Assembly (NCBI GenBank): GCA_965208625.1
Contig: OZ242348.1
Coordinates: 1,391,545 to 1,455,544 of the forward strand
Direction: 5' to 3'
DNA length: 64,000 nucleotides
DNA from: Dehalococcoidia bacterium
GTDB lineage: Bacteria; Chloroflexota; Dehalococcoidia; Lucifugimonadales; Australimonadaceae
Shown in pieces: positions 3,050 through 37,860 of the stretch (positions within the stretch are counted from its first letter, which is position 1; every line of letters begins with the position of its first letter). Both the position numbers and the translations under genes were made by a program. The notes beneath the pieces are model-generated. The model saw only the letters and a program-made list of their open reading frames with translations, ran no database searches and was not told where the DNA came from.

Positions 3050-3212
3050 CGCCACTTACCGTCGTTCCTGCGCAGGCAGGAAGCTCGCCTGGTGTAGGGG
3101 CGTCCCATGTGGGCGCCCTTCCCCATCGTTCCCTCTCAGCCTTGTCTTCCCCCTCTCCCCCGGGAGAGGGTGCCGCGCTTCAGCCGCAGCGAGTGAGGGT
3201 CGAGACGCGCCC
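3050..3212. repeat. cluster of G+C-rich hairpin modules (intergenic mosaic repeat family)
   Basis: Contains GTTCCTGCGCAGGCAGGAAG, GTAGGGGCGTCCCATGTGGGCGCCC and CCCTCTCCCCCGGGAGAGGG+GCGCTTCAGC. Each has relatives in the other clusters listed. Confidence 0.8.
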
Positions 3213-3215
3213 CAC

Positions 3216-3854
3216 CTAATATCCACCCAGCGCAACGCTCACAAAGCGACGCTCCATGCGCAGCGCCAGGTCCCGCGCCGTCGAGAGGTGCTCGCTGCTG
3301 CCCAGCGCAACCACGAACGCGACGCCCAGCAGTCTCCCGAGCGCGAAGTCCACGATGGTGGAACCGATGACGCCTACCGGCACGTCGTGCACGGCGAAGA
3401 CGCCCGCCGCCTTGCCGTGGAAGCCGGACACCGGCACCTCCTCCGCGTGGAGCAGTTCATGGCCGTTGTCCAGGATGCGACCCGCGTTGCCGACGAACTC
3501 ACTGAGGAACGTCTCGTCTATCCAGCGCTCGACCGATGCTCCGTCGCGGAAGAGGTGCGCCACCATCCCCGCGCTGACGATGGTGCCTGTCTCAGGCTCC
3601 TCCTCCAACTCGCGGCTCATCTCTCGCAGATAGCCGCTGATGCGCCCGGCCTCTCCGATAGACTCTTCCGTCTGACCCGGAAAGCCATGCTCGGCCATCG
3701 TCTCGTTATCGAGTTCGTTCTCACGCGTGACAACGAACCCGGCAAGCTCGGGCGGCATGTCGGCTGGCTGCAACAGCATGTGCTCCAGGTCAGCCATCTG
3801 GACAGCGTCCGTGGCCCTGCGTAGTGCATTCGTCTGTTGCCCCTGACCGGTCAT
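3216..3854 (-). CDS. hypothetical protein
   Basis: The ORF runs 3216..3917. The internal ATG at 3854 is preferred (GAGGAG 10 nt upstream). Coding-like composition, but I recognise no motif. Confidence 0.55.
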   Translation of the reverse strand: MTGQGQQTNALRRATDAVQMADLEHMLLQPADMPPELAGFVVTRENELDNETMAEHGFPGQTEESIGEAGRISGYLREMSRELEEEPETGTIVSAGMVAHLFRDGASVERWIDETFLSEFVGNAGRILDNGHELLHAEEVPVSGFHGKAAGVFAVHDVPVGVIGSTIVDFALGRLLGVAFVVALGSSEHLSTARDLALRMERRFVSVALGGY

Positions 3855-3936
3855 CACAAGCGTGCTCCTCGTCGAATTGCACAGACAGCCTACCAGAGCA
3901 GGAGCGTCGCGGGGCATAGTACAATCGAAAGAGCGC

Positions 3937-4012
3937 CCGCCCGTAGCTCAGCGGATAGAGCATCGGTCTTCGGAACCGAGTGTCGTGGGTTCGATTCCCT
4001 CCGGGCGGGCCA
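3937..4012 (+). tRNA. tRNA-Arg (anticodon UCG)
   Basis: Manual cloverleaf. 7-bp acceptor CCGCCCG/CGGGCGG, U8, D-arm GCTC-AGCGGATA-GAGC. Anticodon arm TCGGT-CTTCGGA-ACCGA. T-arm GTGGG-TTCGATT-CCCTC with one U-U mismatch. Encoded CCA. The C1-G72 first pair is unusual. Confidence 0.85.
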
Positions 4013-4164
4013 GCGCCGCAAACCTGCACGAATCCGATTCCCACGGAACAACGTAACTCATATTGACCGGCTGTCCCCGTGGGAAACACGCTATCCTTAA
4101 GCAGTTGCTACCGATGGATCAGTGCCGCCCGAGAGAAGCCCGTACGGACCCGCAGTCGACGCCT

Positions 4165-4217
4165 CACAGGTGTTCCTGCTCCCGCTGCGGAACCGGGAGT
4201 AAGGAGATACACCTGTG
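4165..4217 (+). promoter_or_regulatory. 5' leader hairpin that sequesters the SD and start codon of the RND gene
   Basis: CACAGGTGT (4165-4173) pairs with ACACCTGTG (4209-4217). The second arm contains the GTG start. The inner helix is CTCCCG/CGGGAG, and AAGGAG lies inside the structure. Confidence 0.5.
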
Positions 4218-7200
4218 ACCTTCCTGACGTCGATGGCCCTCCGCCGCCCGACGGTGACGGTGCTCGCCATAGCCCTCATCCTCGTCTCCGGCGTGGGTGC
4301 CTACCGCTCGCTCCAGGTTGAGCTCTTTCCCCAGATCGACTTCCCGCTCGTTGCGGTCTTCGTCGCTTATCCCTCCGCCGACCCGGAGGCGGTCGTCCGT
4401 TCGGTCACCGACCCCATCGAGCGTGCGATCTCCGATACGCCCGAACTCGAATCGATACTGTCCAATTCGTCCGAGGGGAGGTCGGCGATATTCGCCAACT
4501 TCCGCTACGGCACGGACATGGCGGAAGCGCAGGCGGCCATCGAAGCCGCCGTCGGCGGCGTCACCTTCCCCGACGGCGTTCAGGAGCCGGACGTCGGGCG
4601 CTTCAATCCGGACGATTTCCCCGTCGTCCAGTTCAGCGTCATATCGGACAGGCCACTCGCGGAGATGCAGGACCTCGTGCGATCGCGCATCGTGCCTGAG
4701 ATCTCCGGCCTCGACGGCGTCATGGACGTTACGCTCGCCGGCACGGTGGACCGAAGCGTACGCATCACCGTGGACGCCGAGAAGTTGGCGGCCAACGACG
4801 TCCCCCTGTTCCAGCTAGCAGGGGCCCTGAGCGAGAACAACCTGACGCTCCCAGCCGGACTGCTGTTCGACGGCTCGCAGGCCATCATCGCCAAGACGAC
4901 CTACACGCTGGAGTCGGTGGAGGACATCGAGAACCTCATCGTCGGCGGCTCCGCAGCCGGCGTCGTGCGTCTCGCTGACGTCGCCACCGTAACCCTCGGT
5001 AACGGAACGCCTGACAGCATCGACCGCACGAACGGCAAGCCCGGCATCGGCGTGTCCGTCACCAAGGGGCCCGACGCCAATACCGTGGACGTAACGACCG
5101 CGGTCAACGAGGCGCTGGATAGCATCGAAGGACTCCCCGCGGACGTCGAGATAATCGTCGTAGCGGACCAGGGCCCCGAGATCCAGCGGCAGATCGACAC
5201 CCTCGCCAGGGAGGCGATATTCGGCTTCTTCTTCGCCGTCTCCGTGGTCTTCGCCTTCATGTTCACCATCCGGCCGACGGTCGTGCGGGGCTTCTTCAAC
5301 ACGCTCCGTCCCACCGTGGTCATCGCGCTCTCCATCCCCCTGAGCGTCCTGACCGGAATCCTGCTCATGTTCTCGCAGGACATGTCCCTCAATTTCATGA
5401 CGTTCGGAGGACTCGCCATCTCCGTGGGACGCGTCGTCGACGACTCCATCGTCGTGTTAGAGAACGTCTACCGCCACATACAGGGAGGACGCGAGCGGTG
5501 GCGCGCCGCGCTGGATGCAACCGCCGAGGTAGGCCCCGCCATCGTCGCCTCGACCTTGACCACCGTCGTCGTGTTTCTCCCGCTGGCGTTCATCCCCGGC
5601 CTGTTCGGGGCGTTCTTCTCTCCCTTCGCGCTCACTGTCACCTTCGCGCTCATCGCGTCGCTGTTCGTCGCGCTGACAGCGGTCCCTGTCCTCGGGGCAT
5701 ACCTCCTCCGCCCCGGCGACCTGCCGGAGGGAGCCGGCGACGAGGGCGAGTTGATGCTGCCGGAGACCGCGCTGCAGCGCATCTACGGCGCCATCCTGCG
5801 CTGGGTGTTGCGCCGCAGGCTCATCACCTTGCTGGCCGCCTTCCTGATCACGTTGTCGAGCCTCGGCCTTCTCGCCGTTATCCCCGTCAACCTGTTCGGC
5901 GGCGAGACCGACAGCCTGCAGATCCAGGTCGTCATGCCGCCAGGGACCGCCCCTGAGCAGACCCTCGAGACGGTCGTCGAGATAGAAGAGCGGCTGAACG
6001 ACGTCTCCGACCTCTACTCGGTGACCATCGGCGCGTCAGAGTTCGGTTTCTTCTCGGGTGGGGGGCAGGCTAGGCGTGCCGAGTTCTTCGTCACCCTCAG
6101 GGATGATGCTCCTGAGGACATCGCCCAGGTACTCAGGGAGGAACTCAACCAGCCTGGACGGGTCGTCAGCATCTCGGAGATCGTGGACGGCCCTCCGGGG
6201 GGCGGCGTTGACATCGCCGTCACCGGCCCGGACTACGGCGACATCGCCACTGTCTCCCGTGAACTGGTCGCGTCCCTCGGGACCATCGAGGACATCGTCA
6301 ACCTTGAGAACACCGTGACCCAGGCCCGTCCTGAGGTCGCGATTGAGGTGGACCCGGAGAAGGCCGCGTTCCTCGGTCTCACCACGCGCCAGGTCGCCTT
6401 CCAGCTCAGCCTGTACCTCATCGGCCAGACCGTCACGACCATCTCCATAGACGGCCAGACGTACGACGTCGTGGTCGCCGGAGACCCGCGCGCTGCGGGA
6501 GGGCTGGATGGTGTGAGCTCCCTCATCGTCGCCGGGCAGGTCGGCTCAGCGCCCCTGGGAGACATCGCCGAACTCGTCATGCGCGAGGGCCCGGTCGAGG
6601 TCAGCCGTATCGACGGCGTCCGCTCTGCGAGCATCACCGCCGACATCATCGGTGAAGATGCTCAGGCCGTCGGCGTCCTCGTCCAGGAGAAGATCGACGC
6701 ACTGCAGCTCCCGCCCGGCGTCAGCGTCGAGAGCGGCGGCGTCTTCGCCGACATCGCGGAGGGCTTCCAGGCCGTCTTCATCTCCATGGCCGTGGGTATC
6801 GTGCTCGTCTACCTCGTCATGGTCGTCAGCCTCGGCTCCCTGCGGAACCCGTTCGTCATCATCACGACGCTGCCGCTGGCGCTCATCGGCGTGTTCGTTT
6901 CGCTGGCCATAACCGGGCGCTCGCTCGGGCTGCCCGCCATGATGGGCATGCTGCTCCTCATCGGCATCGTCGTAACGAACGCAATCGTGCTCATCGCCTT
7001 CGTGGAACAGCAACGAGCCAGGGGCATGCCCGTCTACGACGCCCTGGTCTCCGGCGCACGCGTACGCCTGCGCCCCATCCTCATGACCGCCCTCACCACG
7101 AGCTTCGCCCTCCTGCCGCTCGCAGTGGCGAGCGAGGGCAGCGGCGGCATCATCAGCGCGGAGCTGGCGACGGTCGTGATAGGCGGCCTGATGAGCTCCA

Positions 7201-7328
7201 CCGGGCTCACCCTGCTCGTCCTGCCCATCGTCTACATGCTGTTCAACGACAGCATCCCAAGGCTCCTGAACAGGCTCTTCCGCCGCCCCCAGCCTGCTCC
7301 CGCGCCTGAGCCCGCCCCGGCAAGCTGA
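4215..7328 (+). CDS. RND-family efflux transporter permease (AcrB/HAE-like)
   Basis: 1037 aa. N-terminus MTFLTSMALRRPTVTVLAIALILVSGVGAYRSLQVELFPQIDFP. Two large loops and a 12-TM pattern are typical of the family. No adjacent periplasmic adaptor or outer-membrane gene. Confidence 0.9.
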   Translation: MTFLTSMALRRPTVTVLAIALILVSGVGAYRSLQVELFPQIDFPLVAVFVAYPSADPEAVVRSVTDPIERAISDTPELESILSNSSEGRSAIFANFRYGTDMAEAQAAIEAAVGGVTFPDGVQEPDVGRFNPDDFPVVQFSVISDRPLAEMQDLVRSRIVPEISGLDGVMDVTLAGTVDRSVRITVDAEKLAANDVPLFQLAGALSENNLTLPAGLLFDGSQAIIAKTTYTLESVEDIENLIVGGSAAGVVRLADVATVTLGNGTPDSIDRTNGKPGIGVSVTKGPDANTVDVTTAVNEALDSIEGLPADVEIIVVADQGPEIQRQIDTLAREAIFGFFFAVSVVFAFMFTIRPTVVRGFFNTLRPTVVIALSIPLSVLTGILLMFSQDMSLNFMTFGGLAISVGRVVDDSIVVLENVYRHIQGGRERWRAALDATAEVGPAIVASTLTTVVVFLPLAFIPGLFGAFFSPFALTVTFALIASLFVALTAVPVLGAYLLRPGDLPEGAGDEGELMLPETALQRIYGAILRWVLRRRLITLLAAFLITLSSLGLLAVIPVNLFGGETDSLQIQVVMPPGTAPEQTLETVVEIEERLNDVSDLYSVTIGASEFGFFSGGGQARRAEFFVTLRDDAPEDIAQVLREELNQPGRVVSISEIVDGPPGGGVDIAVTGPDYGDIATVSRELVASLGTIEDIVNLENTVTQARPEVAIEVDPEKAAFLGLTTRQVAFQLSLYLIGQTVTTISIDGQTYDVVVAGDPRAAGGLDGVSSLIVAGQVGSAPLGDIAELVMREGPVEVSRIDGVRSASITADIIGEDAQAVGVLVQEKIDALQLPPGVSVESGGVFADIAEGFQAVFISMAVGIVLVYLVMVVSLGSLRNPFVIITTLPLALIGVFVSLAITGRSLGLPAMMGMLLLIGIVVTNAIVLIAFVEQQRARGMPVYDALVSGARVRLRPILMTALTTSFALLPLAVASEGSGGIISAELATVVIGGLMSSTGLTLLVLPIVYMLFNDSIPRLLNRLFRRPQPAPAPEPAPAS

Positions 7329-7329
7329 T

Positions 7330-7560
7330 CCTCCCCCCTTGATGGAGACCTTTTGCATCACTGCGTGGGGTGCCATTGGGAGGGGTGATGATGCCTGATC
7401 CCCTCTCCCTTGAGGGGAGAGGGCAACGCGCTTTAGCGCGCGGTGAGGGTGAACCGGGGACGGGGCGTGGCATCTGTGAGCGGGTTATGCAAGGGCCCTT
7501 TGATGGGGGAAGGTGGGAGCCATCCCCGCATTTGATGCGGGGATGGGGGTGCATTGCCTG
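7330..7560. repeat. cluster of G+C-rich hairpin modules
   Basis: CCCCTCTCCCTTGAGGGGAGAGGG followed by ACGCGCTTTAGCGCGCGGTGAGGGTG, then the 11-bp hairpin CCATCCCCGCA-TTTGA-TGCGGGGATGG. Lies between convergent genes. Confidence 0.8.
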
Positions 7561-7565
7561 CGGCG

Positions 7566-10833
<3,268 letters not shown>

Positions 10834-10874
10834 CAGTCCAGAGTTGGTGAGACTTTGTTGACTGGTAGGCACTT

Positions 10875-11010
10875 AGCCTTGTCATGTTGAGCGTAGCCCG
10901 CGCTTCAGCGCGCAACATCCTCTCGGGGGGCGGTGGCATAGGGCGGGCGCTTGCCCGAGAGATTCCTCGGCTCCGCTCGGAATGACAATACAGGGACAGT
11001 CGCCCACCCA
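10875..11010. repeat. cluster of G+C-rich hairpin modules
   Basis: GTCATGTTGAGCG...CCCGCGCTTCAGCGCGC and GATTCCTCGGCTCCGCTCGGAATGAC modules. Confidence 0.65.
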
Positions 11011-11075
11011 CCCTGAACCAACACGCGCCTCCCTGAATCCTCGACGCAAAACCGGAACGGGCGTAACGTAATCCC

Positions 11076-12377
11076 GTGCGCGATTTCCTTGCCCGACGCT
11101 TCGAGTTCTTCGTCGTCCTCCGACGGCGGGACTACCGACGCTACTGGTTCGGCCTCGTCGGGAGCGTCACGTCCCAGCAGGCGCTCATGACCGCCCAGGG
11201 CTGGCTGCTCTACGACATCACCGGCGAGGTCGTCGTCCTCGGGTACGTTGCCGCCGCGCAGGCCGTCCCCGCCATCGTCTTCAACCTCCTCGCCGGCGCC
11301 CTCGCCGACCGGCTCGACCCCCGACGCCTCATCGTCATCGGCGAAGGCGTCGCAACGCTCGTCATCGCGGTGCTGGCGACGCTCGTGCTGATCGGACGGG
11401 TCGAGGTCTGGCACATCGTGGCCTCGGCCTTCCTCATCGGCATCTCGACGTCGCTCGACCAGCCCGCGCGCCGCGTCGTCTGGCCCGCCCTCGTGGAGCG
11501 TCAGCAGTTCATGTTCGCCACAGCCCTGAACCAGGGCGTCTGGAACGGCACCCGTGTCTTCTCGCCGATGGTCGGGGCGATGCCCATCGCCATCGTCGGC
11601 GGCATCACCGGCGACTTCCACCTCGGCGCGGCGGTCGCGCTCTACCTTATCGCGGCGGGCTTCGCCACCATGGCCATCGCCATCGTCACCATCACGCTGC
11701 CGGAGATGCGGCGCGCGACGGGACGCACCGTCCTCCACGACATCGCGGACGGGCTCGGCTTCGTCGTGCGGCACCGCATCTTCCTGCTCCTGCTCATGAT
11801 GAGCTTCGCCATCGGCTACTTCGGACTCTCCTACCAGTGGCTGCTGCCCGCGTTCGCCGCGGACGTCCTGGGGCTGGGGCCGGAGGGGCTCGGCTTGCTC
11901 CAGACCGCGAGCGGCATCGGCGGACTTACGGGCATCTTCCTCTCGGCGTCCTTCGGCCAGCAGCAGAGCAAGGCCTGGATGCTCGGCGGCGGCGCGGGCC
12001 TGCTCGGACTATCCGTGCTGCTCTTCGGCGTCAACGGCGAGATGCAGTGGTACTGGTTCGCCCTCGCCATGGCCGCCGCGAGCGGCGGGCTCTACGCCGT
12101 CTTCCAGACCGCCTCCAACACCCTGCTGAACCTCCTCGTCCCCACGGAGTTCCGAGGCCGTGTCATGGGCCTCCGAGGCGTGATGTGGAGCCTCGCCCCG
12201 CTCGGAGCCCTGCAGGCGGGCTTTGTCGCCCAGTACACCAGCACCCCGTTCGCCATAGCCCTCGGCGGCGGCGCCGTCATCGCCGTCACCATCCTCGCCT
12301 TCGCCTTCAGCGGCCAGGTCCGCTCCATCCACCGCCTCGTCGAAGAAGCCAACGCCCGCGAGGGAGTGAACGCGTAA
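11076..12377 (+). CDS. MFS transporter
   Basis: 433 aa with a GTG start and about 12 TM segments. LADRLDPRR loop motif. Confidence 0.85.
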   Translation: MRDFLARRFEFFVVLRRRDYRRYWFGLVGSVTSQQALMTAQGWLLYDITGEVVVLGYVAAAQAVPAIVFNLLAGALADRLDPRRLIVIGEGVATLVIAVLATLVLIGRVEVWHIVASAFLIGISTSLDQPARRVVWPALVERQQFMFATALNQGVWNGTRVFSPMVGAMPIAIVGGITGDFHLGAAVALYLIAAGFATMAIAIVTITLPEMRRATGRTVLHDIADGLGFVVRHRIFLLLLMMSFAIGYFGLSYQWLLPAFAADVLGLGPEGLGLLQTASGIGGLTGIFLSASFGQQQSKAWMLGGGAGLLGLSVLLFGVNGEMQWYWFALAMAAASGGLYAVFQTASNTLLNLLVPTEFRGRVMGLRGVMWSLAPLGALQAGFVAQYTSTPFAIALGGGAVIAVTILAFAFSGQVRSIHRLVEEANAREGVNA

Positions 12378-12384
12378 GTCCCGT

Positions 12385-12770
12385 CGTTCTTGTGAAAATA
12401 GGCGTTCGTCGTTCCTGCGGAGGCAGGAACCCCGCCCCTGTCCCGTCATTCCCGCACCGGCGGGAATCTAGGGTGCACGGGCAGTGCACACGGGGCGGAG
12501 TGGAAGGGCGGGGCGCGTCCAGCCGGCTACTGCGTTATTCGGCTGGCAAGTACGGGCGCGCGTGGGCTGTCGCCTCCCAATTTCATTCCCTTACACGGCC
12601 TGACAAGGCTCTGGGCCATTCCTGCGAAGGCAGGACGCGCTTTAGCGCGCCCTCGCCCCTTGCGCGGAGCGCCTGCTTGGTCCCTTCCCTCTTGATGGGG
12701 GAAGGTTAGGATGGGGGTGAACAGGTGGTGGGGAGTGGGGATGCCTGGTCCCCTCTCCTGAGGGAGAGGG
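12385..12770. repeat. large cluster of G+C-rich hairpin modules
   Basis: GTTCCTGCGGAGGCAGGAAC, ATTCCCGCACCGGCGGGAAT, CGGCCTGACAAGGCTC, ATTCCTGCGAAGGCAGGA+CGCGCTTTAGCGCGC, CCTTCCCTCTTGATGGGGGAAGG, CCCCTCTCCTGAGGGAGAGGG. The 380-aa track ORF reads through these by accident. Confidence 0.85.
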
Positions 12771-13294
12771 TTAGGGTGAGGGCCCTGCTTGGGTGGAGTG
12801 GGGAGATTTGAACGACGGTCCACCCAGCGCAGCCTCCATCGGCGTCGAGATGATGCCGCCCACGGTCTGTTCCTCCCCGGTCGGCGCGAAGCCCACGCGA
12901 GCGTAGAATGGGACGGCGTAGCGGTCGCATTGACCGTGACGCGCTCGGCGGCCGGATCGTTCTGGCGCGCGATGTCCAGCAGCCGTCTCACCAGTTCCCG
13001 CCCGACGCCCCGCCCGTGCATCGCCTCCTCCACGAAGAGCAGGCCGATGTGGGGTACCTCACGGCGGCGCCCGATCCAGCCCATGCCGACCAACCGCACT
13101 CCGGCAACGGCGACGAGTGTGCCCTGCCGCCGCTCGGGTTCGCCTAGCCGTGCTGACGATGCGTAATCGCTGAACGTCTTCCTGCCTTCATCAGTGAGGT
13201 CCGGCGCGACGAATTCGGCGAAGGCGCGCATCACCAGCCGGGATAGCTCCTCCTCTTCTCCCGCCCGCATGAGTCTGTAGCTGGCTTCAGGCAT
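12771..13294 (-). pseudogene. GNAT-family N-acetyltransferase with an apparent 1-nt frameshift near 12920-12928
   Basis: The N-terminal 124 codons (MPEASYRLMR...GRGVGRELVRRLLDIARQ...VTVNA) are in one frame. The expected GNAT C-terminus YAVPFYARVGFAPTGEEQTVGG...* is open in the adjacent frame down to TAA at 12771-12773. The span is 524 nt, which is not a multiple of 3. Confidence 0.6.
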
Positions 13295-13418
13295 GCAATT
13301 CATCTCCTGCTCAAAGGATAGCCGACCCAACCTCACCTCCCACACGCACACCCACCCCCGCTCGTGGTAAAACAGAAGCCGCCCCCAAGCGACACGACCA
13401 CCAAAGGAGAACAACCAC

Positions 13419-14369: not shown

Positions 14370-14705
14370 CCCCTCCCCGCTCATGGTGAGCCTGTCGAAC
14401 CCATCCTGCGAAGGCAGGAACCTCGCCCCCCGTCTGGTGTAGGGGCATCCCTTGTGGGTGCCCTTGCCCTCGCCTGCCGTAGGGGCGGTTCGCGAACCGC
14501 CCTCCCCCCGTCGTTCCCGCGCTTTAGCGCGCCGAAGGCAGGAACCTCGCCCCCTGTCCGGTGTAGGGGCATCCCCTTGTGGGTGCCCTTCCCCCCGCCC
14601 TGCCGTAGGGGTGGTTCGCGAACCGCCCTGCCCCCACCCGCGCTCACGATGCCGCCCTCCGCTCATGGTGCCCCCTTCTCCGCTCATGGTGAGCCTGTCG
14701 AACCA
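14370..14705. repeat. composite repeat: A-(B-C-D)-(B'-C-D)-A-A arrangement of hairpin modules
   Basis: A = CCGCTCATGGTGAGCCTGTCGAACC. B = CCTGCGAAGGCAGGAACC. C = GTAGGGGCATCCCTTGTGGGTGCCC. D = GTAGGGGCGGTTCGCGAACCGCCC. The B-C-D unit occurs twice in tandem. Confidence 0.9.
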
Positions 14706-14712
14706 CCCGCAT

Positions 14713-14728: not shown

Positions 14729-14812
14729 TCCGCCCATTGCGCCAACGATGCCACCCTCCCTACCCTGTAAGTGCGTCCCCCGCAGACGCCAGCAACACAC
14801 CGATGGAGGGAG

Positions 14813-15726: not shown

Positions 15727-15965
15727 CTCCGTCATTCCCGCGAAAGCGGGAACCTCGTCCCCTGTCCGGTGTAGGGGCATCCCTTGTGGGTGCCCTTGCC
15801 CCCGCCGGCGTAGGGGCGGTTCGCGAACCGCCCTGTCCCCACCCCCCGCTCATGGTCGGGGGTGCCCGCTCATGGTGCCCCCTCCGTCCCTTGTGGGCGC
15901 CCGTTCTCCCACCTCTCCCCTCGGGGGAGGTCGACGCGCTTTAGCGCGCGGTGAGGGGTGGGCGC
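15727..15965. repeat. composite repeat (B''-C-D-A-A plus CCCCTC/GGGGAGG and GCGCTTTAGCGCGC modules)
   Basis: 15749-15882 aligns by eye with 14541-14675, with roughly nine of ten positions identical over the first ~100 nt. Confidence 0.9.
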
Positions 15966-17884: not shown

Positions 17885-17995
17885 GGGGGAGTGCAGAGGG
17901 GAGTATCCCCGCTGCCACGGGCTAAGCCCGCGGCGTGGGGGTGTCCCCCAGGCCTGTCCTGAGCCTGCCGAAGGGCGTTCGGGTGGGTGAGTGGG
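17885..17995. repeat. cluster of G+C-rich hairpin modules
   Basis: CACGGGCTAAGCCCGCGG, GGGGGTGTCCCCC and CCTGAGCCTGCCGAAGGGC modules. Confidence 0.6.
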
Positions 17996-31373: not shown

Positions 31374-31708
31374 GGCTCACGCCTCCTGTTCCTGCAGTTG
31401 CGGCGCGAGCGTAGCAAAGCGGAGGGCACTCGTCCATCAGCCCGATCGAGCATGGCTCAGGCCCCGCCGCGACAGGAGCGCAACGCCTCCGTAGTCGTCG
31501 ACCTCCCGCACTCCCATCTCCCCGCACGCTTATCGCATTGAGGAGTGCGCTTCCGTGCCGGAGAATCGATTGCCAACAAAACCGCCTCCGGTCCGCCCAG
31601 TCCCTCACTGCGGACCCGGACAGGCGGCGCAGGGGCCTGAACAGCGCTTCCCTGCAAACATCCGAATACACACGATCCCGACGCGAGTTCCGTGTCCCCA
31701 GGAGCAGC

Positions 31709-34700
31709 GTGAGACATCTGATCGCATCCGTTCCCCACGTTTCGACCCGTATCCTCTTGCCGGCGTTCATGGCAGCAGCCTTCGCACTGCTTTTGATGTT
31801 GCCCGCCTTCGGCCAGGGGACCTTCCACCGCACGGACGGGAAGATCAGCGTCGGCGGACTGAGTGTCGGCGTGTTCGCCGGCATCGAGGACGCCCAGGTG
31901 GCCAAGAACCGGGAGACTACCTACCGGGAAGAGACGGTCTACGTGCCCGAAGACCCTCCGCCCACGGCGCCCACACTTGGGAGAGTTACTGGTTCGCATT
32001 CCACGATGGACACCGCCTATCTCGCGGATGGGCAAGCCGCGCCGCAACACACCTTCTTCAATCACGTGCTCTGGGTGTCCAACAACCCTGAGGCGTACAA
32101 CACCATCCTCATCACGGCTGTGAGCAACAGCAACGTCACCGAGAACGACGACGGCTGTATCGTCGCGACGGTACGGAACCCGCGGGCCAACAGTTCCATG
32201 GCGGTGCAGATGGCTCTCTCGACTTCAACCGGCCCACCGGGTGAGTTGAAGAGCTACTACCAGGCATTCGTGCGGGTCCTCGATTCGCAGGCAGTGGACG
32301 CGAACGAGGACCCGCTCTATACGTCGACCAAGAGCCCGGCGTGCGATGACTTCGACGCAGGTGTCGCCCAGGACGCCACCGCCTCGATCCTCGCGCGGCA
32401 CGACGACCGCCTCGTGATCAATGTCGCCGGTGTGGGAGAGGTGGCGGTGGAGGTGGACGGCGAGGGGCCGGACGTGACCGGCATCACGCCGGAAGACATC
32501 AGTTACCTGCGCTCCAGCAGCCTCCATTACTCGTTCGCCGTGCGCGACAGCGACGCAGGCCTGCGGCACGACGGTGAACTCGTGATTACCAAGGACGGCG
32601 ACTACACGGAGGTGAACGCGGACGACGACCACGCCACGACCGGCGAGCCGCTCTCGACGTCCTCCGGCGGGCAGATCAGCGTGAACGGCGAGGCCGCGGA
32701 GATAGATCTGAATGTGTGGGCCGAGGAGGCTGACGCCAACTCCGCGGACGACATCACGGGGACGGGGAGGTGGACGCTCCTGGGCGACCGCCCGGGCGTG
32801 GCGTACTCGTTCTCGGCGGACGGCGGCAGCATGGATGAGGGCGCGTATTTCGTGGAGATAACGGCCTTCGACCGCGCCGGCAACCGGACGGTGAGCGAAG
32901 CGCCGGACGACAAATACCCGGGTCCGCACGCCTTCACCGTGGACGACACGGACCCGGCCACCGTCCAGTCGTGGACCGGCATCACTTACGACCCGGACCT
33001 CGCGATGATGGACAAGGTCGTAGGCGGGGAGGTCGCCGACCGTTCATGGATCATGGTGGATTTCACCGAACCGCTCCGCGCGGGGATCAAGCCCGAGCGG
33101 GTCAGGGTCGCCGGCCATGAGGTGGTCAGCGTTTACCAGCCGAACTACGCGCCGCCGTTCATGAGGACCCTCCTGGGCGGCATGAACATGGCTCCGGCGG
33201 GGGCGCCCCGGCTGACGTTCGCGCCGCCCGCGCCCCGCGCCGCGGCCTCGCTCGCGCCCCAGGCGCAGACGTGCACGGACACCTCGGACGACAGGATAAC
33301 CGGCCTCAGTTTCGACTACGACGAGACCACAGGTGACACCACGATCTCCTGGGACCGGCTCAGCAACGCCGACTGCGACGGCTACCGGCTGGCCATCCTC
33401 TCGGGGCGGACGGTGCTGTTCGTCGCGGACCCGGAGCGCCCGACTTCCGGGACGACAGTGTCCTTCAGCATACCGAGGGCGTCCGAACTGGGGCGGGATA
33501 TCGAGGCTGACATCGGGGACGCGGACGGAGACGATCTGACCATCCTCGTCGCACTGCCATACGCCTCCGTAGGCGCGCATACCGACAAGTTCGGGCGCAG
33601 GAAGGCGACCGCGGTCGTGGACCTCGCCAGCCTGACAGCACCGCAGACGGACGTGAGCGTCGACGTGATCGCACCGTTCCTGCTGCACCCGGCGTCGGCG
33701 CCCGCGGTGCTGCCGGCGATCGCGGCGAACGACGTCTCGCTCCTGTGCAGGTTCACGACCGGGACCCCCTCCAACGATGAAGTCGTGTTCTCCTTCACGC
33801 ACACACCGTTGACGGTCGGCGGATGGGAGCTCGTGGGGTACTACCGGCAGCTTTTCTACCCGCCGGTCGACAGCGACAACGATCCGCCGGAATACAGCGC
33901 CGATAAGTTGGACCGTCTCTTCGACTACACGGCGGTCGGGACGGACGGCTGGGAGACGAGCGTCAGTTTCCAGGGCTACTACGACGCGAGCCCGGAGGTG
34001 TACAACGCCAAGGGGGAGGTCGTGGGGGTGTACAAGAAGGATGGCAGGACGCTCGCGGGCGCAGTGCGGACCGTTGGGTGCACCGGCAGTAGGATCACCA
34101 ACTCGAACGTGGACAGGAGCCCGCCACTGCTCTGGACGGCAGAGGTCGGCGGCACGACGCTCAGGCTGACGTACAACGAGGGGCTGGACGGGGGGTCGAC
34201 GCCGTCCGAGAGTGCGTTCGACGTCCAGGTGGAGGGCGCGCAGCGCACGGTCAGCGACGTGTCGGTGCATGGCAGGCAGGTGACGCTCAAGCTGGGTTCG
34301 CCGGTCACGGCCGGGAATCGCGTTACGGTCAGCTACACGAAGCCTGGCACGAACCCGATCCAGGACGTCGCCGAGAACGACGCGTTCAGCTTCCGGCTCT
34401 GGCCCGTCTCGAACGCACTGGGAAGGGGAGACGCCGCCGCCGATGGCGTCGACATAACGGGCCTCACGCACGAAGAGGCGCTGGCGGAGGCGGGATACTG
34501 GCCGATAGACATCAACGGCGAACGCATTGAGGACACGCGCACGCGCATCTACATCGAACTGGCGGACGAGCTGCGGGCAGACGAGACGCCGGAGGTGACG
34601 ATCTTCGCCGGCGGCGCGCTCGACCTCGCGGGCAACGCGAGCGCCACCGAGGCCATCACGCCGCGGGACGGCATCGCGCCGCGCTTCACCGTCACCGTGA

Positions 34701-36115
34701 CGGCCACCGCGCAGGACCGTCCGGTCGCGAACGCACGCGGCGAGTTCGTCGTGGACGTGCGCGCGGACGAGGACCTGCGTCGGCGCCCAACGGTCTACTT
34801 CACCGGCATCGCGGCCGGGAAGGTGACGGTGAACGGCGCCGACGCTTACGGCTACGACATCGGCGAGCTCCAGGCAGGCCGCACGCTCACCGCACAGGAG
34901 GACGACGCCCACTGGGCCGGGACGTATCCGGCGTCGGGCCTGACCGGGATCGGAGAGCTGCTCGGGCTTGTGGTGTACGGGTTCGACTACGAGGACAACA
35001 TCGGCGAGTCGGGCGGCTGGAAGCCGCCCAGGCACCAGCGGACAGTGGAGATCGGCCCGCCCCTGCCGAACCACGACCTGGACCTCTCGAAGATGCATGA
35101 GGCAGGAGTGCTGCTGGAGATAGACGAGGAGTTCAACGGCGGCGCAACGCCTGAGGTCGCCCTGAACCCAACGCGGAGGCAGCGGAACGACGAGACGGAG
35201 AGTCCCGCCCCGATCATCAGCATCAGCTTCGCGGCGGAGGAGGCCGAGTACGCGGTCTGCCCCGTGGACGGCTGCGGCGACCCCAACCCGGACGCCGAGT
35301 TCTTCGACTCCCACGCCGGGGTGACCATCGCGGCGATCACGCTTGACGACAACGACGCGCTGGGGCAGCTCACACGGGTGAATGCCTCGAAGTTCGCGCT
35401 CCTCGCCAGCGACCTGGCGCTGGGAGAGCACGAGGTCGAGTACATGGCGCTCGACGACGCGGGCAACGTGGCCACGTTCGAGTTCACGTTCTCGGTGGTC
35501 GAGCGGGAGCCGTACAAGTTGGACGTGCTGCCTGGTTGGAACCTCATCTCCTTCCCCGGCACGCCCGAGGACCCGTCGCTGGGCGCCGTGATCCCGTCCG
35601 GCGCGCGCGTCTCGCCCGTGCTGGCGTACCAGGACGGGGACTGGCTGACCGCGGTGGTGAATGAGGAAGGCGAGTGGGGCGGCAACCTGACGCGGTTCGA
35701 GGCGGGGTTCGGCTACTGGCTGTTCACGACGACGTACGCGACGCTCGCCCCGCTGATCCCGGAGCATGAGCAGTCGACAACGCCGCCGACCGCGCCGGTG
35801 CGGCACGGCTGGAACCTGCTGGGGGTGATAGACATCTTCGAGAACCCGGCGGGCACGCCTCCGGGCCCGAACGGCGGCGACGGCGAGGCCGACCATTACT
35901 TCGGCAGCATCCCGTGGCGCATCGCCTATGCCTACGACACGGTGCACAGCCTGTGGGTGCGGAGCATCCCGAGCGCAGACAGGGCTGCTCCCGAGGGGAC
36001 GAGTACGGACGCACGCGGGTTCCGCCTGGTGGACGGTGAGGTCGTCACGCAGGAGGTCTTGAACGGCAAGGGCTACTGGGTGTGGTCGGCGGAGCCGGGC
36101 ACGCTGGTGCCGTAG
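31709..36115 (+). CDS. very large secreted repeat protein with Ig-like/SwmB-type domains (candidate surface-layer or adhesin protein)
   Basis: The ORF is open from 31538. GTG 31709 (AGGAG 4 nt upstream) gives the signal peptide ...ILLPAFMAAAFALLLMLPAFG-QG. LTYNEGLDGGSTPSESAFDVQV...VTVSYTKPGTNPIQDVAEND is an Ig-like repeat signature. No LPXTG and no C-terminal TM. Confidence 0.8.
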   Translation: MRHLIASVPHVSTRILLPAFMAAAFALLLMLPAFGQGTFHRTDGKISVGGLSVGVFAGIEDAQVAKNRETTYREETVYVPEDPPPTAPTLGRVTGSHSTMDTAYLADGQAAPQHTFFNHVLWVSNNPEAYNTILITAVSNSNVTENDDGCIVATVRNPRANSSMAVQMALSTSTGPPGELKSYYQAFVRVLDSQAVDANEDPLYTSTKSPACDDFDAGVAQDATASILARHDDRLVINVAGVGEVAVEVDGEGPDVTGITPEDISYLRSSSLHYSFAVRDSDAGLRHDGELVITKDGDYTEVNADDDHATTGEPLSTSSGGQISVNGEAAEIDLNVWAEEADANSADDITGTGRWTLLGDRPGVAYSFSADGGSMDEGAYFVEITAFDRAGNRTVSEAPDDKYPGPHAFTVDDTDPATVQSWTGITYDPDLAMMDKVVGGEVADRSWIMVDFTEPLRAGIKPERVRVAGHEVVSVYQPNYAPPFMRTLLGGMNMAPAGAPRLTFAPPAPRAAASLAPQAQTCTDTSDDRITGLSFDYDETTGDTTISWDRLSNADCDGYRLAILSGRTVLFVADPERPTSGTTVSFSIPRASELGRDIEADIGDADGDDLTILVALPYASVGAHTDKFGRRKATAVVDLASLTAPQTDVSVDVIAPFLLHPASAPAVLPAIAANDVSLLCRFTTGTPSNDEVVFSFTHTPLTVGGWELVGYYRQLFYPPVDSDNDPPEYSADKLDRLFDYTAVGTDGWETSVSFQGYYDASPEVYNAKGEVVGVYKKDGRTLAGAVRTVGCTGSRITNSNVDRSPPLLWTAEVGGTTLRLTYNEGLDGGSTPSESAFDVQVEGAQRTVSDVSVHGRQVTLKLGSPVTAGNRVTVSYTKPGTNPIQDVAENDAFSFRLWPVSNALGRGDAAADGVDITGLTHEEALAEAGYWPIDINGERIEDTRTRIYIELADELRADETPEVTIFAGGALDLAGNASATEAITPRDGIAPRFTVTVTATAQDRPVANARGEFVVDVRADEDLRRRPTVYFTGIAAGKVTVNGADAYGYDIGELQAGRTLTAQEDDAHWAGTYPASGLTGIGELLGLVVYGFDYEDNIGESGGWKPPRHQRTVEIGPPLPNHDLDLSKMHEAGVLLEIDEEFNGGATPEVALNPTRRQRNDETESPAPIISISFAAEEAEYAVCPVDGCGDPNPDAEFFDSHAGVTIAAITLDDNDALGQLTRVNASKFALLASDLALGEHEVEYMALDDAGNVATFEFTFSVVEREPYKLDVLPGWNLISFPGTPEDPSLGAVIPSGARVSPVLAYQDGDWLTAVVNEEGEWGGNLTRFEAGFGYWLFTTTYATLAPLIPEHEQSTTPPTAPVRHGWNLLGVIDIFENPAGTPPGPNGGDGEADHYFGSIPWRIAYAYDTVHSLWVRSIPSADRAAPEGTSTDARGFRLVDGEVVTQEVLNGKGYWVWSAEPGTLVP

Positions 36116-36354
36116 GGGGCGGGGGTTGTCAGGGACGGGCGCGCCTGCGCTGCTTGGTGGGGATGCCTCACCCCCGGAGCATCCTCACCGTGAGGTAAAG
36201 CGCGTTACCTCTTCCTTGTACGGAGAGGTGTCCGACCCCCTTCTCCCCTCGGGAAGTGCATGGACCTTCTCTATGCGTGTCGCTTCGGACCTCGTGTTGA
36301 AGGTGACCAGGTCGGTGAAGCTGCCTCCAACGTCGACCCCGATGCGCCAGTCGC

Positions 36355-37431
36355 TCAAGCGGTCCCCCAGGCGCCGCCGTAGAACCGCACCGCGTTCCGG
36401 TACAGGATGTCCTCCTTGGCGCTCTCGGAGACCGCCTCGTTCTCGAGCAGTTCGTCGATCTCGGCGCGGATGGTGTCGATGTTCACCTCGTGCGGGAAGT
36501 CGCTGGAGAAGACGAACGCGCCGCTTCCGTACTTGTCGATCGCGTTCGCCAGCATAGGCTCGTCGCCCTCGATACCGACGAACAGCCGTCCCGCGTCGAC
36601 CAGGCGCTGGATATACGCCTCGACGTTGTCTCCCTCATCGATCTGCAGGAAGCGGCGTTGCGGGTTGACCGGCGTGAACGCGTCGTACGCGCCGGAGCAA
36701 CGCTCGATCACCATGAGGAACCAGCCGAGCCCGCCTTCCAGGAAACCGAACCGCGCATTGGGGAAGCGATCGAAGATGCCGGTGAAGAGCATGTCCGTGA
36801 AGGCGATGCTGATGGCGAAGGAGTGGCCGAGCGCGTGGACGCCCGCGAACGGCGTCATGCCGTCCAGTCCCATCGCGTGGTGTGCGCCGGCGTGGATGCC
36901 AAGTACACAGCCGAGCCGGTCAGCCTCCTCGTAGACGGGCCAGAACTTCCTGTTGCCGAGCAGCGCCTGCAGCCCGGTGCCAGGCACCATCGCGCCGACG
37001 AAACCCAGCTCGGTGACGGCGCGGCGCAACTCGTCGACCGCCGCGTCCGGGTCCTGCATCGGCACGAGGGCCGCCGCCTTCACGCGCTCGTCCCTGCTGA
37101 GGTAGTCGTCGTACAGCCAGTCGTTGTACGCCCTTGCCGTCGCTATCGCGAGGTCGGGGTCGAGGATCTTGCCGAAGGACAGCCCGCGCGTCGGGTAAAC
37201 GACCGTGCCGTCGATGTGCGCGGAATCGAGGAAGTTGCCCCAGCCGGCGACGCCGCCGGGGTCCCGGAACGCGCCGTCGGGATAGCGGTGCGACTGGTGG
37301 TGCAAGTGGTCCGGCGCGGGGAACGGGCCCACGCCCCTGACGGCGTTCCCGCCGAGCAGTTCCGGGGGGATGCGCTCCATGATCGCCTTCACGTCTTCAA
37401 TGACATGCCCATCGCCGTCGAGTATCCGCAT
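36355..37431 (-). CDS. amidohydrolase-2 family protein
   Basis: ATG 37431 (MRILDGDGHVIED). SSDFPHE near the C-terminus. Confidence 0.85.
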   Translation of the reverse strand: MRILDGDGHVIEDVKAIMERIPPELLGGNAVRGVGPFPAPDHLHHQSHRYPDGAFRDPGGVAGWGNFLDSAHIDGTVVYPTRGLSFGKILDPDLAIATARAYNDWLYDDYLSRDERVKAAALVPMQDPDAAVDELRRAVTELGFVGAMVPGTGLQALLGNRKFWPVYEEADRLGCVLGIHAGAHHAMGLDGMTPFAGVHALGHSFAISIAFTDMLFTGIFDRFPNARFGFLEGGLGWFLMVIERCSGAYDAFTPVNPQRRFLQIDEGDNVEAYIQRLVDAGRLFVGIEGDEPMLANAIDKYGSGAFVFSSDFPHEVNIDTIRAEIDELLENEAVSESAKEDILYRNAVRFYGGAWGTA

Positions 37432-37468
37432 GGCGTATTCCTTTCTCCGCGCGAGGGGGGCGAACCCC

Positions 37469-37617
37469 GAACAAGATTCCAACGGCCCTCGTATTTTGAA
37501 ATCTTGTTCAGCATTTACGAGTGCGGGGGGAGGGCGAAATGAGTACCTTGATCTCCTTGTTATGGGGTGTTTTCAAGGCCGTGGCCTGCTTCCCGCGATC
37601 AAGGCATCAAGATTTCA
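37469..37617 (-). promoter_or_regulatory. 5' leader with three segments capable of mutually exclusive pairing
   Basis: 37497-37509 (TGAAATCTTGTTC on plus) can pair with either 37469-37478 (GAACAAGATT, 10 bp) or 37608-37617 (CAAGATTTCA, 10 bp). A nested CCTTGATC/GATCAAGG pair lies at 37546/37597. Confidence 0.4.
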
Positions 37618-37645
37618 TCGGTTTTAACTTTTCGCCTCCGCTGTC

Positions 37646-37692
37646 ATAGGTATTTCCTATAGCTGCGCGGATCTGCCATAGACCCTGTCTAT
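37646..37692. promoter_or_regulatory. two 15-bp palindromes, ATAGG-TATTT-CCTAT and ATAGAC-CCT-GTCTAT (operator-like pair)
   Basis: Read directly at 37646-37660 and 37678-37692. Both share ATAG...CTAT outer half-sites and their centres are 32 bp apart. Confidence 0.45.
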
Positions 37693-37734
37693 AGGAGGAA
37701 CAGGCGGCCTGCACATGGGCGCAGCATAGCGGAT

Positions 37735-37860
37735 GCGGGGGTGATGGCGTAAGCGGCGGGTGTCACTGCATGGGCTGCCCCACGCCAGGGCGAGCTTTCG
37801 CGCCAAGGCGCGTGCCTCCGCAGGAACGCCCCGGAGCCTTGTCAGGCCGCGTACGCGGTG
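37735..37860. repeat. cluster of G+C-rich hairpin modules (inverted relative to other clusters)
   Basis: The reverse complement contains GTTCCTGCGGAGGCA, GCGCCTTGGCGCGAAAGC, GTGGGGCAGCCCATGCAGTGACACCC and CGGCCTGACAAGGCTCCGG. The last matches 12596-12611. Confidence 0.7.

What the first reader, a model, noticed from the sequence alone, without database searches (positions are those of the whole stretch)
3050..37860. Family of short G+C-rich hairpin modules reused combinatorially in at least eight intergenic regions
The same ~20-35-nt self-complementary modules recur in different orders and orientations at 3050-3212, 7330-7560, 10875-11010, 12385-12770, 14370-14705, 15727-15965, 17885-17995 and 37735-37860 (possibly also 36120-36260). 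Examples are GTTCCTGC-GAAG-GCAGGAAC, TTCCCGC-GAAA-GCGGGAA, GGGGCGGTTCGCGAACCGCCCC, GGGCA-TCCCTTGTGGG-TGCCC, CCCTCTCCC-CC-GGGAGAGGG, (A)CGCGC-TTTA-GCGCG and CGGCCTGACAAGGCTC. They sit mostly at gene 3' ends and between convergent genes. They create long spurious ORFs with repetitive pseudo-peptides. This looks like a REP/MITE-like system, but no RAYT or transposase gene is present in the window.
Basis: seen in the sequence. Interest (0 to 1): 0.6.

Follow-up and report, generated by a model that had tools for sequence, protein, structure and literature searches.

The report
Mosaic arrays of REP-type hairpin repeats
The intergenic hairpins are real: they are GTAG- and CGTC-tagged repetitive extragenic palindromes (REPs), a published class of bacterial repeats, packed into mosaic arrays behind genes of a Chloroflexota chromosome and reshuffled between close strains.

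Summary
Each module recurs 2-6 times in the window against a chance expectation of 0.5 or less. Nearly all copies are intergenic, and each folds as a hairpin.

The modules fit the two REP superfamilies of Di Nocera et al. 2013 (PMC3733652):
- Module A is a CGTC-1-type REP: CGTC tag, 8-bp stem, 4-nt loop.
- Modules B and C are GTAG REPs of a GTAGGGGC type.
- Modules D-I are accessory motifs, as in E. coli BIMEs.

Stems show compensatory changes in all three tagged families (0/500 shuffles reach the observed score).

At the same two intergenic sites, strains with 94-97% identical flanks carry different module arrays, so the arrays turn over fast.

The window has no RAYT or other transposase. In other genomes, module C lies next to and inside RAYT-like HUH tyrosine-transposase genes. 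This makes trans mobilisation the likeliest mechanism, but it is inferred, not shown for this genome.

The source is a Chloroflexota chromosome.

Verdict: a new member of a known kind, of moderate-to-low interest. The more unusual lead lies outside the window. The 28-nt module C palindrome sits in frame, with its DNA conserved, inside thousands of RAYT-like genes across phyla.

The parts
3060..3083 (+). Module A, a CGTC-tagged REP: CGTC GTTCCTGC GCAG GCAGGAAG
3094..3118 (+). Module B, a GTAG-tagged REP: GTAGGGGCGTCCCATGTGGGCGCCC. It differs from the other B copies by a compensatory A:T to G:C change.
3150..3200 (+). Degenerate E-F-i composite: CCCCTCTCCC cc GGGAGAGGG hairpin, a CGCGC-type hairpin, then GTGAGGG
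7401..7455 (+). E-F-i composite: CCCTCTCCC ttgag GGGAGAGGG, ACGCGCTTTAGCGCGC, GGTGAGGGTGA
   Evidence: (D15)
7497..7546 (+). H-like motif (CCTTTGATGGGGGAAGGT) followed by a perfect 12-bp hairpin, CCATCCCCGCAT ttg ATGCGGGGATGG
10877..10990 (.). Inverted pair of TGTC-tagged arms (TTGTCATGTTGAGCG ... CGCTCGGAATGACAA) enclosing an F hairpin. It folds as one long hairpin and is the only REPIN-like or head-to-head-dimer-like unit in the window.
12407..12467 (+). Two CGTC REPs in tandem: GTTCCTGC/GGAG and ATTCCCGC/ACCG. The second has a conserved ~45-nt 3' extension that is shared with L123 and L124.
12596..12650 (+). G (CGGCCTGACAAGGCTC), a partial A, then F (ACGCGCTTTAGCGCGC). This is the inverted twin of 37813-37853.
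   Evidence: (I3)
12683..12782 (+). H hairpin + TTAGGATGGGGG, then E hairpin + TTAGGGTGAGGG. Positions 12749-12783 give a sub-threshold Rfam match to whalefall-1.
14379..14401 (+). Module D (GCTCATGGTGAGCCTGTCGAACC), left copy. It flanks the array as a direct repeat.
   Evidence: (D7)
14404..14639 (+). Tandem duplication (period 124-126 nt) of the composite A-B-C. In the second unit, an F hairpin lies inside module A (14509-14545).
   Evidence: (D1, D4)
14682..14704 (+). Module D, right copy
   Evidence: (D7)
15730..15833 (+). Third copy of the A-B-C composite: CGTC REP, GTAG REP B, GTAG REP C
15908..15960 (+). E-F-i composite, 91% identical to 7415-7449 over 35 nt
   Evidence: (D15)
17940..17985 (+). 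Weak D-related motif (CCTGAGCCTGCCGAAGGGC) in a divergent promoter region. Membership is doubtful.
   Evidence: no module pattern hit
36178..36235 (-). Degenerate E-F-i composite on the minus strand. It lies at the edge of a strain-specific segment.
   Evidence: my own reading; junction
37795..37853 (-). F-like hairpin, partial A and G on the minus strand. It is conserved at the same place in a 96%-identical strain (L121).
   Evidence: (I3)

Best explanation
The clusters are BIME-like mosaic arrays of repetitive extragenic palindromes (REPs) in a Chloroflexota chromosome.

Three module families are tagged REPs in the sense of Di Nocera et al. 2013:
- A is a CGTC-1-type element.
- B and C are GTAG elements that share the head GTAGGGGC.
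- D, E, F, G, H and I are accessory short hairpins or motifs. They travel with the REPs in recurring composites: A-B, B-C, A-B-C and E-F-GGTGAGGG.

Proposed mechanism (inferred):
- The GTAG hairpins are single-strand DNA substrates of RAYT/TnpA-REP-like HUH tyrosine enzymes encoded elsewhere in the genome. These enzymes cut and rejoin next to the tag and so seed new copies.
- Copies survive where they do no harm, just downstream of ORFs.
- Arrays then grow, shrink and are swapped by tandem duplication and by recombination between arrays.
- The CGTC elements have no known enzyme.
- The arrays would be transcribed as the 3' ends of the upstream genes, so they may secondarily act as 3'-end hairpins.

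Shown: recurrence, tags, hairpins with covariation, intergenic position, rapid turnover between strains, wide distribution, and physical association of C and B with RAYT-like genes in other genomes.

Inferred: mobilisation in this genome, and any RNA-level effect.
For: - Recurrence is far above chance.
- The tag is unpaired and the stem-loop geometry fits. A is CGTC + 8 bp + 4 nt. B is GTAG + 8 bp + a 5-nt CTYGT loop. C is GTAG + a 9-10-bp palindrome. All three match the published definitions (PMC3733652).
- Covariation:
  - A: 94.9% paired, 18 double-sided changes, 0/500 shuffles reach this.
  - B: 100% paired, 17 double-sided changes, 0/500.
  - C: 97.1% paired, 8 double-sided changes, 0/500.
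  - Sliding the partner columns drops pairing to 20-55% in all three.
- Turnover. Two sites were compared, behind the MFS gene (stop at 12377) and behind the epimerase gene (stop at 14369). L123, L124 and L168 have 89-97% identical flanks but different module content and order.
- The same module repertoire in mixed orders occurs in other Chloroflexota and Dehalococcoidia genomes.
- The exact 24-mer of C occurs in at least 120 contigs from many phyla.
- RAYT-like genes carry C-type hairpins inside and beside the gene (L047, L119, L058, L011, L204, L207, L208). A paralogue in L058 carries two B-type hairpins. These genes hit NCBIfam REP_Tyr_transpos at E = 5e-19, and their best PDB hit is E. coli TnpA-REP, 4ER8.
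- Tandem duplication of A-B-C with a period of 124-126 nt.
Against: - No RAYT-like gene is in the window or in about 0.5 Mb of related-strain loci. The rest of this 3.3-Mb genome could not be searched, so the cognate enzyme is not shown for this organism.
- The REPs here are head-to-tail and of different families. They are not the inverted doublets (REPINs, head-to-head or tail-to-tail dimers) thought to be the mobile unit elsewhere.
- CGTC elements have no known transposase (PMC3733652).
- One array (37735-37860) is unchanged between strains at 96% identity.
- Strain differences look like replacement of whole arrays, not clean single-module insertions. Recombination alone could explain the turnover.
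- The sequences for the pair counts were picked by patterns that favour pairing.
Confidence: 0.75

Rival explanations
1. The hairpins are primarily functional 3'-UTR RNA elements. On this view they act as U-tract-independent terminators or as barriers to 3' exonucleases, and are selected at each gene rather than being mobile DNA.
For: - The arrays sit directly after stop codons (3038/3060, 12377/12385, 14369/14370, 15726/15730).
- All 11 full tagged copies between 3 and 16 kb have the same orientation as the upstream gene.
- In 5 of 15 B copies, including every window copy except 3094, one pair is T.G on the tagged strand. That is a G.U pair in RNA but C.A on the other strand.
- Di Nocera et al. 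draw the same inference.
Against: - No terminator-like site (hairpin plus T-run) falls in any array.
- The module content behind the same gene differs between close strains, so no particular hairpin is needed at a given gene.
- Up to ten modules pile up at one site.
- Identical modules occur in unrelated phyla and inside ORFs.
- This reading is compatible with, not exclusive of, a mobile origin.
Confidence: 0.15
2. The clusters are MITEs or decayed fragments of classical (DDE-type) insertion sequences, or remnants of decayed RAYT genes.
For: - The element at 10877-10990 has inverted ends and folds as one hairpin.
- Module C is identical to a segment inside RAYT-like genes.
Against: - The modules are 20-35 nt, without terminal inverted repeats or target-site duplications.
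- The flanks of the window C copies show no similarity to RAYT coding sequence (tblastn).
- No transposase is present in the window.
Confidence: 0.04
3. The repeats are a chance by-product of G+C-rich, low-complexity intergenic DNA.
For: The window is 67% G+C, and many short hairpins also occur inside genes.
Against: - Markov expectation is 0.5 copies or fewer per module, against 2-6 observed.
- 74-nt composites repeat at 72-89% identity.
- Exact 24-mers are shared with more than 120 other contigs.
- The stems co-vary.
Confidence: 0.01

Closest known systems
GTAG-tagged REPs, especially family GTAG-23 of Thermomicrobium roseum, Roseiflexus and Chloroflexus (Di Nocera et al. 2013, PMC3733652)
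   Same: - Unpaired 5' GTAG, then a G+C-rich 8-10-bp stem and a short loop.
- The same phylum.
[quoted passage not shown]
- The TAG of the tag can supply stop codons.
- Association with RAYT genes.
- G.T pairs in the stems.
   Different: - The GTAG-23 consensus is not held as text, so identity with B or C could not be checked. Only the peptides it encodes (AGLRPAP, GAAQPRTY) suggest a GTAGGGGC-like head.
- Here the GTAG REPs are interleaved head-to-tail with CGTC REPs.
CGTC-1 REPs (for example Neisseria dRS3 and Rickettsia RPE-6)
   Same: - CGTC/TGTC tag, 8-bp stem beginning AT, 4-nt loop and a CCA-type tail.
- No linked transposase.
   Different: - The 2013 paper reported them in Proteobacteria, Chlorobi, Bacteroidetes, Spirochaetes and Thermotogae, not in Chloroflexi.
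- There they are mostly head-to-head dimers and rarely clustered. Here they are single, co-oriented and clustered.
- Window copies have tails CTA, CTC or CCC and a GT-starting stem variant (GTTCCTGC).
E. coli BIMEs (bacterial interspersed mosaic elements)
   Same: Extragenic mosaics that combine REPs with a small set of other conserved motifs in variable order.
   Different: - REPs in BIMEs alternate in orientation. Here they are co-oriented.
- Binding of IHF, gyrase and Pol I is unknown here.
REPIN-RAYT systems of Pseudomonas and Enterobacteria (Bertels and Rainey)
   Same: - Short palindromes with a GTAG head.
- The presumed enzyme is of the same HUH-Y1 family.
   Different: - REPINs are inverted REP doublets, and their RAYTs are single-copy and vertically inherited, with lineage-specific REPs.
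- Here there are no doublets apart from 10877-10990.
- The C sequence is identical across phyla.
Rfam whalefall-1 RNA motif (RF01762)
   Same: A CUCUCC...GGAGAG hairpin followed by AGGGUGAGG, as in module E+I at 12749-12783.
   Different: - The score is 24 bits against a gathering score of 37.
- The 24-nt middle part is missing.
- The E-F-i copies at 7401 and 15908 do not match.

Membership tests
GTAG REP superfamily | Unpaired GTAG (or a close variant) at one end of a stem-loop | tested here: met
   B and C copies all begin with GTAG, and the tag stays unpaired in the minimum-energy fold.
GTAG REP superfamily | Stem of 5-13 bp, loop of 2-20 nt, and subfamilies with complementary stem changes | tested here: met
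   B has 8 bp and a 5-nt loop. C is a 9-10-bp palindrome. Compensatory pairs.
GTAG REP superfamily | Many copies per genome, mostly extragenic | tested here: inconclusive
   There are 7 GTAG copies in 64 kb, all intergenic, and more in strains L123 and L124. The whole genome (a 3.3-Mb contig) could not be scanned.
GTAG REP superfamily | Association with a RAYT (TnpA-REP) gene | tested here: inconclusive
   Met in other genomes: L047, L119, L058, L011, L204, L207 and L208. No RAYT is in the window or the related loci. This genome is not testable.
CGTC REP superfamily (CGTC-1) | CGTC/TGTC tag, 8-bp stem starting AT, 4-nt loop, 3-nt tail (CCA) | tested here: met
   32 copies were aligned. The tag is invariant apart from the first base. 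The stem is 94.9% paired. The tail is CCA in most relatives and CTA, CTC or CCC in the window. Three window copies start the stem with GT.
CGTC REP superfamily (CGTC-1) | Predominantly head-to-head dimers, rarely clustered | tested here: not met
   Window copies are single, co-oriented and inside clusters. This is an organisational feature, not a defining one.
BIME | Extragenic mosaic of REPs plus other conserved motifs | tested here: met
   Recurring composites A-B, B-C and E-F-i in variable order.
BIME | REPs in alternating orientation | tested here: not met
   All 11 full tagged REPs between 3 and 16 kb are on the + strand.
REPIN | Two REPs in inverted orientation that fold into one long hairpin | tested here: not met
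   This holds only for 10877-10990. A, B and C are never inverted pairs in the window.
MITE | Terminal inverted repeats plus a target-site duplication, derived from an IS | tested here: not met
   No TIR or TSD surrounds the modules. No IS is present in the window.
Intrinsic terminator | G+C-rich hairpin followed by a T-run | tested here: not met
   None of the 8 terminator-like sites in 2900-18200 lies in an array.
Rfam whalefall-1 (RF01762) | Score at or above the family's gathering threshold | tested here: not met
   24 bits against 37.

The most novel reading that the evidence does not exclude
Module C may be more than an ordinary lineage-specific REP.

What was seen:
- The same 28-nt palindrome, GTAGGGGCGGTTCGCGAACCGCCCCTAC, sits in frame at one fixed site just after the HUH motif. 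There it encodes (R/K)GGSRTAPT.
- The host is a family of RAYT-like genes with at least 7,987 detected members in many phyla. 97 of the top 120 carry the motif.
- The conservation is at the DNA level. The palindrome is kept in genes of 41-48% G+C. Where it varies, it does so by compensatory changes that alter the peptide (L201 CRGDSRITPT, L208 GRGSSRTAPT).

The novel reading is that the enzyme gene carries its own recognition hairpin. The hairpin could serve self-regulation, or it could be the master copy from which genomic REPs are seeded or corrected. Either role would explain why identical REPs appear in Chloroflexota, Bacteroidota, Nitrospirota, Cyanobacteria and other phyla. It would also tie the window's C arrays to that enzyme.

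I found no paper in the held library that contains the sequence or the peptide.
Probability: 0.3. Interest if true: 0.65.

Novelty: new member of a known kind. Interest (0 to 1): 0.33.

Why it matters
- **Annotation.** These arrays make up about 3% of the window and generate long false ORFs. Masking GTAG/CGTC-tagged hairpins would clean up gene calls in Chloroflexota MAGs.
- **Range of the families.** The finding extends CGTC-type REPs to Chloroflexota. It also shows GTAG and CGTC elements built into common head-to-tail composites, which bears on the open question of what mobilises CGTC REPs.
- **Strain typing.** The arrays differ between strains with 94-97% identical flanks, so they are useful strain markers. 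At least one array sits at a gene-replacement junction.
- **Cross-phylum identity.** Module C is identical across phyla and is built into RAYT-like genes. If confirmed, this would open a testable route to how REP families and their enzymes stay matched.

Tried and rejected
- **Finding the source genome.** Exact-protein look-ups gave nothing for 21388-21858, 13419-14369, 3216-3917 and 8488-9804. The TctA protein worked. Cluster look-up then identified a 3.3-Mb Chloroflexota contig.
- **Plasmids.** blastn of the 14370-14710 array against plasmids found no match.
- **Tag statistics.** A generic count of the 4 nt next to all perfect hairpins was uninformative. Stems absorb palindromic tags, and one locus set was selected by the GTAG pattern. 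I replaced it with family-specific alignments.
- **Rfam.** At gathering thresholds only the tRNA matches. At E-value thresholds only a sub-threshold whalefall-1 hit appears.
- **Terminators.** None lies in the arrays.
- **RAYT or transposase in the window or related loci.** None was found. The 14915-15328 product has only a weak HTH_Tnp_1 hit (E = 0.0014), so I do not treat it as a transposase.
- **A type I R-M link for the RAYT-like family.** It was seen in 2 of the 5 homologue contexts fetched by protein similarity. The two homologues in housekeeping operons show no such link, so it is not a general rule.
- **Replication-strand bias.** GC skew is too noisy in 64 kb to decide.
Full report
**Setting**

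The window is 64 kb at about 67% G+C. It carries ordinary metabolic and transport genes:
- a molybdopterin oxidoreductase subunit at 795-3038 (+)
- tRNA-Arg at 3937-4012
- an AcrB-type pump at 4215-7328 (+)
- MFS transporters
- an epimerase at 13419-14369 (+)
- a family-5 solute-binding protein at 15969-17918 (-)
- the TctC/TctA transporter pair
- amidohydrolases and F420-dependent enzymes

Nine window proteins occur exactly on one 3,298,779-bp contig. Their 90% cluster mates are named 'Chloroflexota bacterium', so the source is a Chloroflexota chromosome.

Yes. I used a Markov-chain control for a census with 2-3 mismatches allowed. Every module recurs 2-6 times where 0.5 copies or fewer are expected.

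The repeat finder independently returns three results:
- a 74-nt A-B unit, three times
- a 46-nt C unit, three times
- a 41-nt inverted match between 12592-12632 and 37813-37853

All good copies lie between the ORFs whose codon-position G+C composition marks them as likely genes. Each module folds into a hairpin.

Two of the nine listed regions are weak:
- 17885-17995 has only a distant relative of D, and it lies in a divergent promoter region.
- 36120-36260 is a degenerate minus-strand copy of the E-F-GGTGAGG unit. This is my own reading.

The orientations are less mixed than stated. All 11 full tagged copies between 3 and 16 kb are on the + strand.

**Anatomy**

| Module | Sequence form | Features |
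|---|---|---|
| A | CGTC + (A/G)TTCC(C/T)GC + 4 nt + GC(G/A)GGAA(T/C) | CGTC tag, 8-bp stem, 4-nt loop |
| B | GTAG + GGGC-XY-CC + CTYGT + GG-Y'X'-GCCC | GTAG tag, 8-bp stem, 5-nt loop |
| C | GTAG + GGGCGGTTCG/CGAACCGCCC | GTAG tag, 9-10-bp palindrome |

In each family a 4-nt tag stays unpaired at the 5' end of the hairpin.

The modules form higher-order units:
- A-B occurs four times.
- B-C occurs three times.
- The whole A-B-C composite occurs three times. Two of these copies form a tandem duplication with a period of 124-126 nt, flanked by two perfect copies of D.
- A two-hairpin unit, E-F-GGTGAGGG, occurs at 7401, 15908 and 3150, and in degenerate form at 36178 (-).
- An F hairpin lies inside one A copy (14509-14545).
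- 10877-10990 is an inverted pair of TGTC-tagged arms that folds as one long hairpin.

**What it is**

The tags led to Di Nocera, De Gregorio and Rocco 2013 (PMC3733652). That paper sorts most REPs into a GTAG and a CGTC superfamily.
- Its CGTC-1 family has a CGTC/TGTC tag, an 8-bp stem starting AT, a 4-nt loop and a CCA tail. Neisseria dRS3 belongs to it. This describes module A point by point.
- Its GTAG families include GTAG-23 of the Chloroflexi T. roseum, Roseiflexus and Chloroflexus. [quoted passage not shown]
- It also notes G.T pairs in the stems, a position behind ORFs, false ORFs, and the lack of any transposase for CGTC elements.

**Covariation**

| Family | Alignment | Paired | Double-sided changes | Shuffles reaching the score |
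|---|---|---|---|---|
| A | 32 distinct copies (window plus other loci) | 94.9% | 18 | 0/500 |
| B | 15 copies | 100% | 17 | 0/500 |
| C | 19 variants | 97.1% | 8 | 0/500 |

- In family A, one pair occurs as C:G 17 times, G:C 8 times and U:A 5 times.
- In family B, 5 copies have a T.G pair on the tagged strand.
- Sliding the partner columns lowers pairing to 20-55% in all three families.
- Caveat: the copies were collected with patterns that favour hairpins, and related copies are not independent.

**Recurrence elsewhere**

The contigs come from:
- Chloroflexota and Dehalococcoidia
- Acidobacteriota
- Desulfobacterota
- Nitrospinota
- Cyanobacteria
- Omnitrophota
- Planctomycetota
- Bacteroides and Parabacteroides
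- Thiothrix
- Rubrobacter and other groups

C often appears there as the full 28-nt palindrome. In the Chloroflexota loci of that set, modules A, B, D, E, H and I co-occur with C in varying order and orientation.

**Turnover**

A protein-anchored metagenome search returned strains with 89-97% identical flanking genes.
- Behind the epimerase gene:
  - the window has D-[A-B-C]x2-D
  - L124 has A-C-E...A...C
  - L123 has a roughly 950-nt array of A, C, E and B units
- Behind the MFS gene, the three strains again differ.
- By contrast, the array at 37735-37860 is unchanged in a 96%-identical strain.

So the arrays are much more fluid than the genes. The changes seen are replacements of whole arrays, so they do not by themselves prove transposition.

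**Enzyme**

The window and the related loci hold no RAYT and no other transposase.

Among the loci found through module C, five RAYT-like genes appear, in L047, L119, L011 and twice in L058. They hit NCBIfam REP_Tyr_transpos at E = 5e-19, below the family cut-off. Their best PDB match is E. coli TnpA-REP, 4ER8.
- In four of the five genes the C palindrome lies inside the ORF, just after the HUH motif.
- L119 also has C-type REPs on both sides.
- In L047 the stop codon is the TAG of a flanking REP.
- The fifth gene, the more distant L058 paralogue, holds two inverted B-type hairpins instead.

This links B and C to two RAYT-like subfamilies. It makes mobilisation in trans the best-supported mechanism, though it remains an inference for this genome.

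**A lead beyond the window**

The RAYT-like family is very large, with at least 7,987 hits at E of 1e-10 or better. The peptide (R/K)GGSRTAPT is nearly invariant.

I then fetched homologues chosen by protein similarity, not by DNA pattern.
- The DNA palindrome is kept in genes of only 41-48% G+C.
- Where it varies, it varies by compensatory changes that alter the peptide: L201 CRGDSRITPT and L208 GRGSSRTAPT.
- In one homologue (L209) it is degenerate.

So the conserved object is the hairpin, not just the peptide. No paper in the held library contains the sequence or the peptide. I cannot exclude that this has been described elsewhere.

**Rivals**

- A purely RNA-level role as 3'-end hairpins. 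This fits the position, the co-orientation with upstream genes and the strand-specific G.T pairs. But there are no T-runs, and the hairpins behind a given gene are not conserved between strains. It is best seen as a possible secondary use.
- MITE or gene-remnant readings. These fail on structure.
- Chance. This is excluded.

**Verdict**

The 'REP-like' interpretation is supported and sharpened to GTAG- and CGTC-tagged REPs in BIME-like arrays. This is a known kind of element. What is new is limited to three points:
- CGTC-type REPs in Chloroflexota
- co-oriented mixed GTAG/CGTC composites
- the strain-level turnover documented here

The most novel reading that remains open concerns the palindrome built into RAYT-like genes.

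Noticed in passing
L047 208-768, L119 2364-2900 (-), L058 1865-2380 (-), L011 1-285, L204 3001-3534, L207 3001-3582, L208 10001-10543: A very large RAYT-like (HUH-Y1) gene family carries the module C palindrome in frame at a fixed site after the HUH motif, encoding (R/K)GGSRTAPT. The DNA hairpin is conserved even in AT-rich genes and varies by compensatory changes. Some members repeat the motif or end in the other-frame reading, VGAVRE...
   Followed up: partly
L201-L203 3001-3552; L204-L206 3001-3534; L207: In some genomes this RAYT-like gene sits inside type I restriction-modification operons (next to HsdR, or between HsdR and HsdS) or beside AAA_15/AAA_21, reverse-transcriptase and Macro genes. 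In L208 and L209 it is wedged into housekeeping operons instead.
   Followed up: partly
L058 136-730 (-): A second, distant RAYT-like paralogue (30% identical) holds two B-type GTAG hairpins in inverted orientation inside its ORF. This suggests one paralogue per REP type.
   Followed up: no
window 31489-36263: This is a strain-specific segment. The window has a 1,525-aa Ig-like/SWM-repeat protein where the 96%-identical strain L121 has a hydantoinase A/B operon. The right junction (36264) lies at the edge of the degenerate REP cluster, and about 90 nt of the hydantoinase 5' end seems to remain.
   Followed up: partly
window 46119-47225: An alpha/beta-hydrolase gene (46172-47029, minus strand) is present here but absent from L121 and L122, which have only 74 nt at this place.
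   Followed up: no
L168 1193-2249 and 2729-5938: A related strain has about 1-kb and 3.2-kb insertions at, or next to, the REP-array sites behind the MFS gene and before the epimerase gene. The array sites may be hot spots for gene gain and loss.
   Followed up: no
window 12749-12783: Module E plus TTAGGGTGAGGG gives a sub-threshold match (24 bits, gathering score 37) to the orphan Rfam motif whalefall-1 (RF01762). That motif may itself be a REP-like element.
   Followed up: partly
window 14713-14728: The perfect palindrome TGTCACATTTGTGACA lies just after the array. It is conserved in strain L124, upstream of a conserved pair of small genes (14915-15328 with a weak HTH hit, and 15340-15726). 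It looks like an operator site.
   Followed up: no
window 58864-60036 and 58-62 kb: A phage-type tyrosine integrase gene lies in a stretch where G+C drops to 0.60-0.635. This is possibly an integrated element.
   Followed up: no
L208 12550-12577: A GTAG palindrome (GTAGGGGTGCACAGCCGTGCGCCCCTAC) lies inside a 1,043-aa ferredoxin/oxidoreductase ORF of a Chloroflexi MAG. This is an example of an intragenic REP.
   Followed up: no
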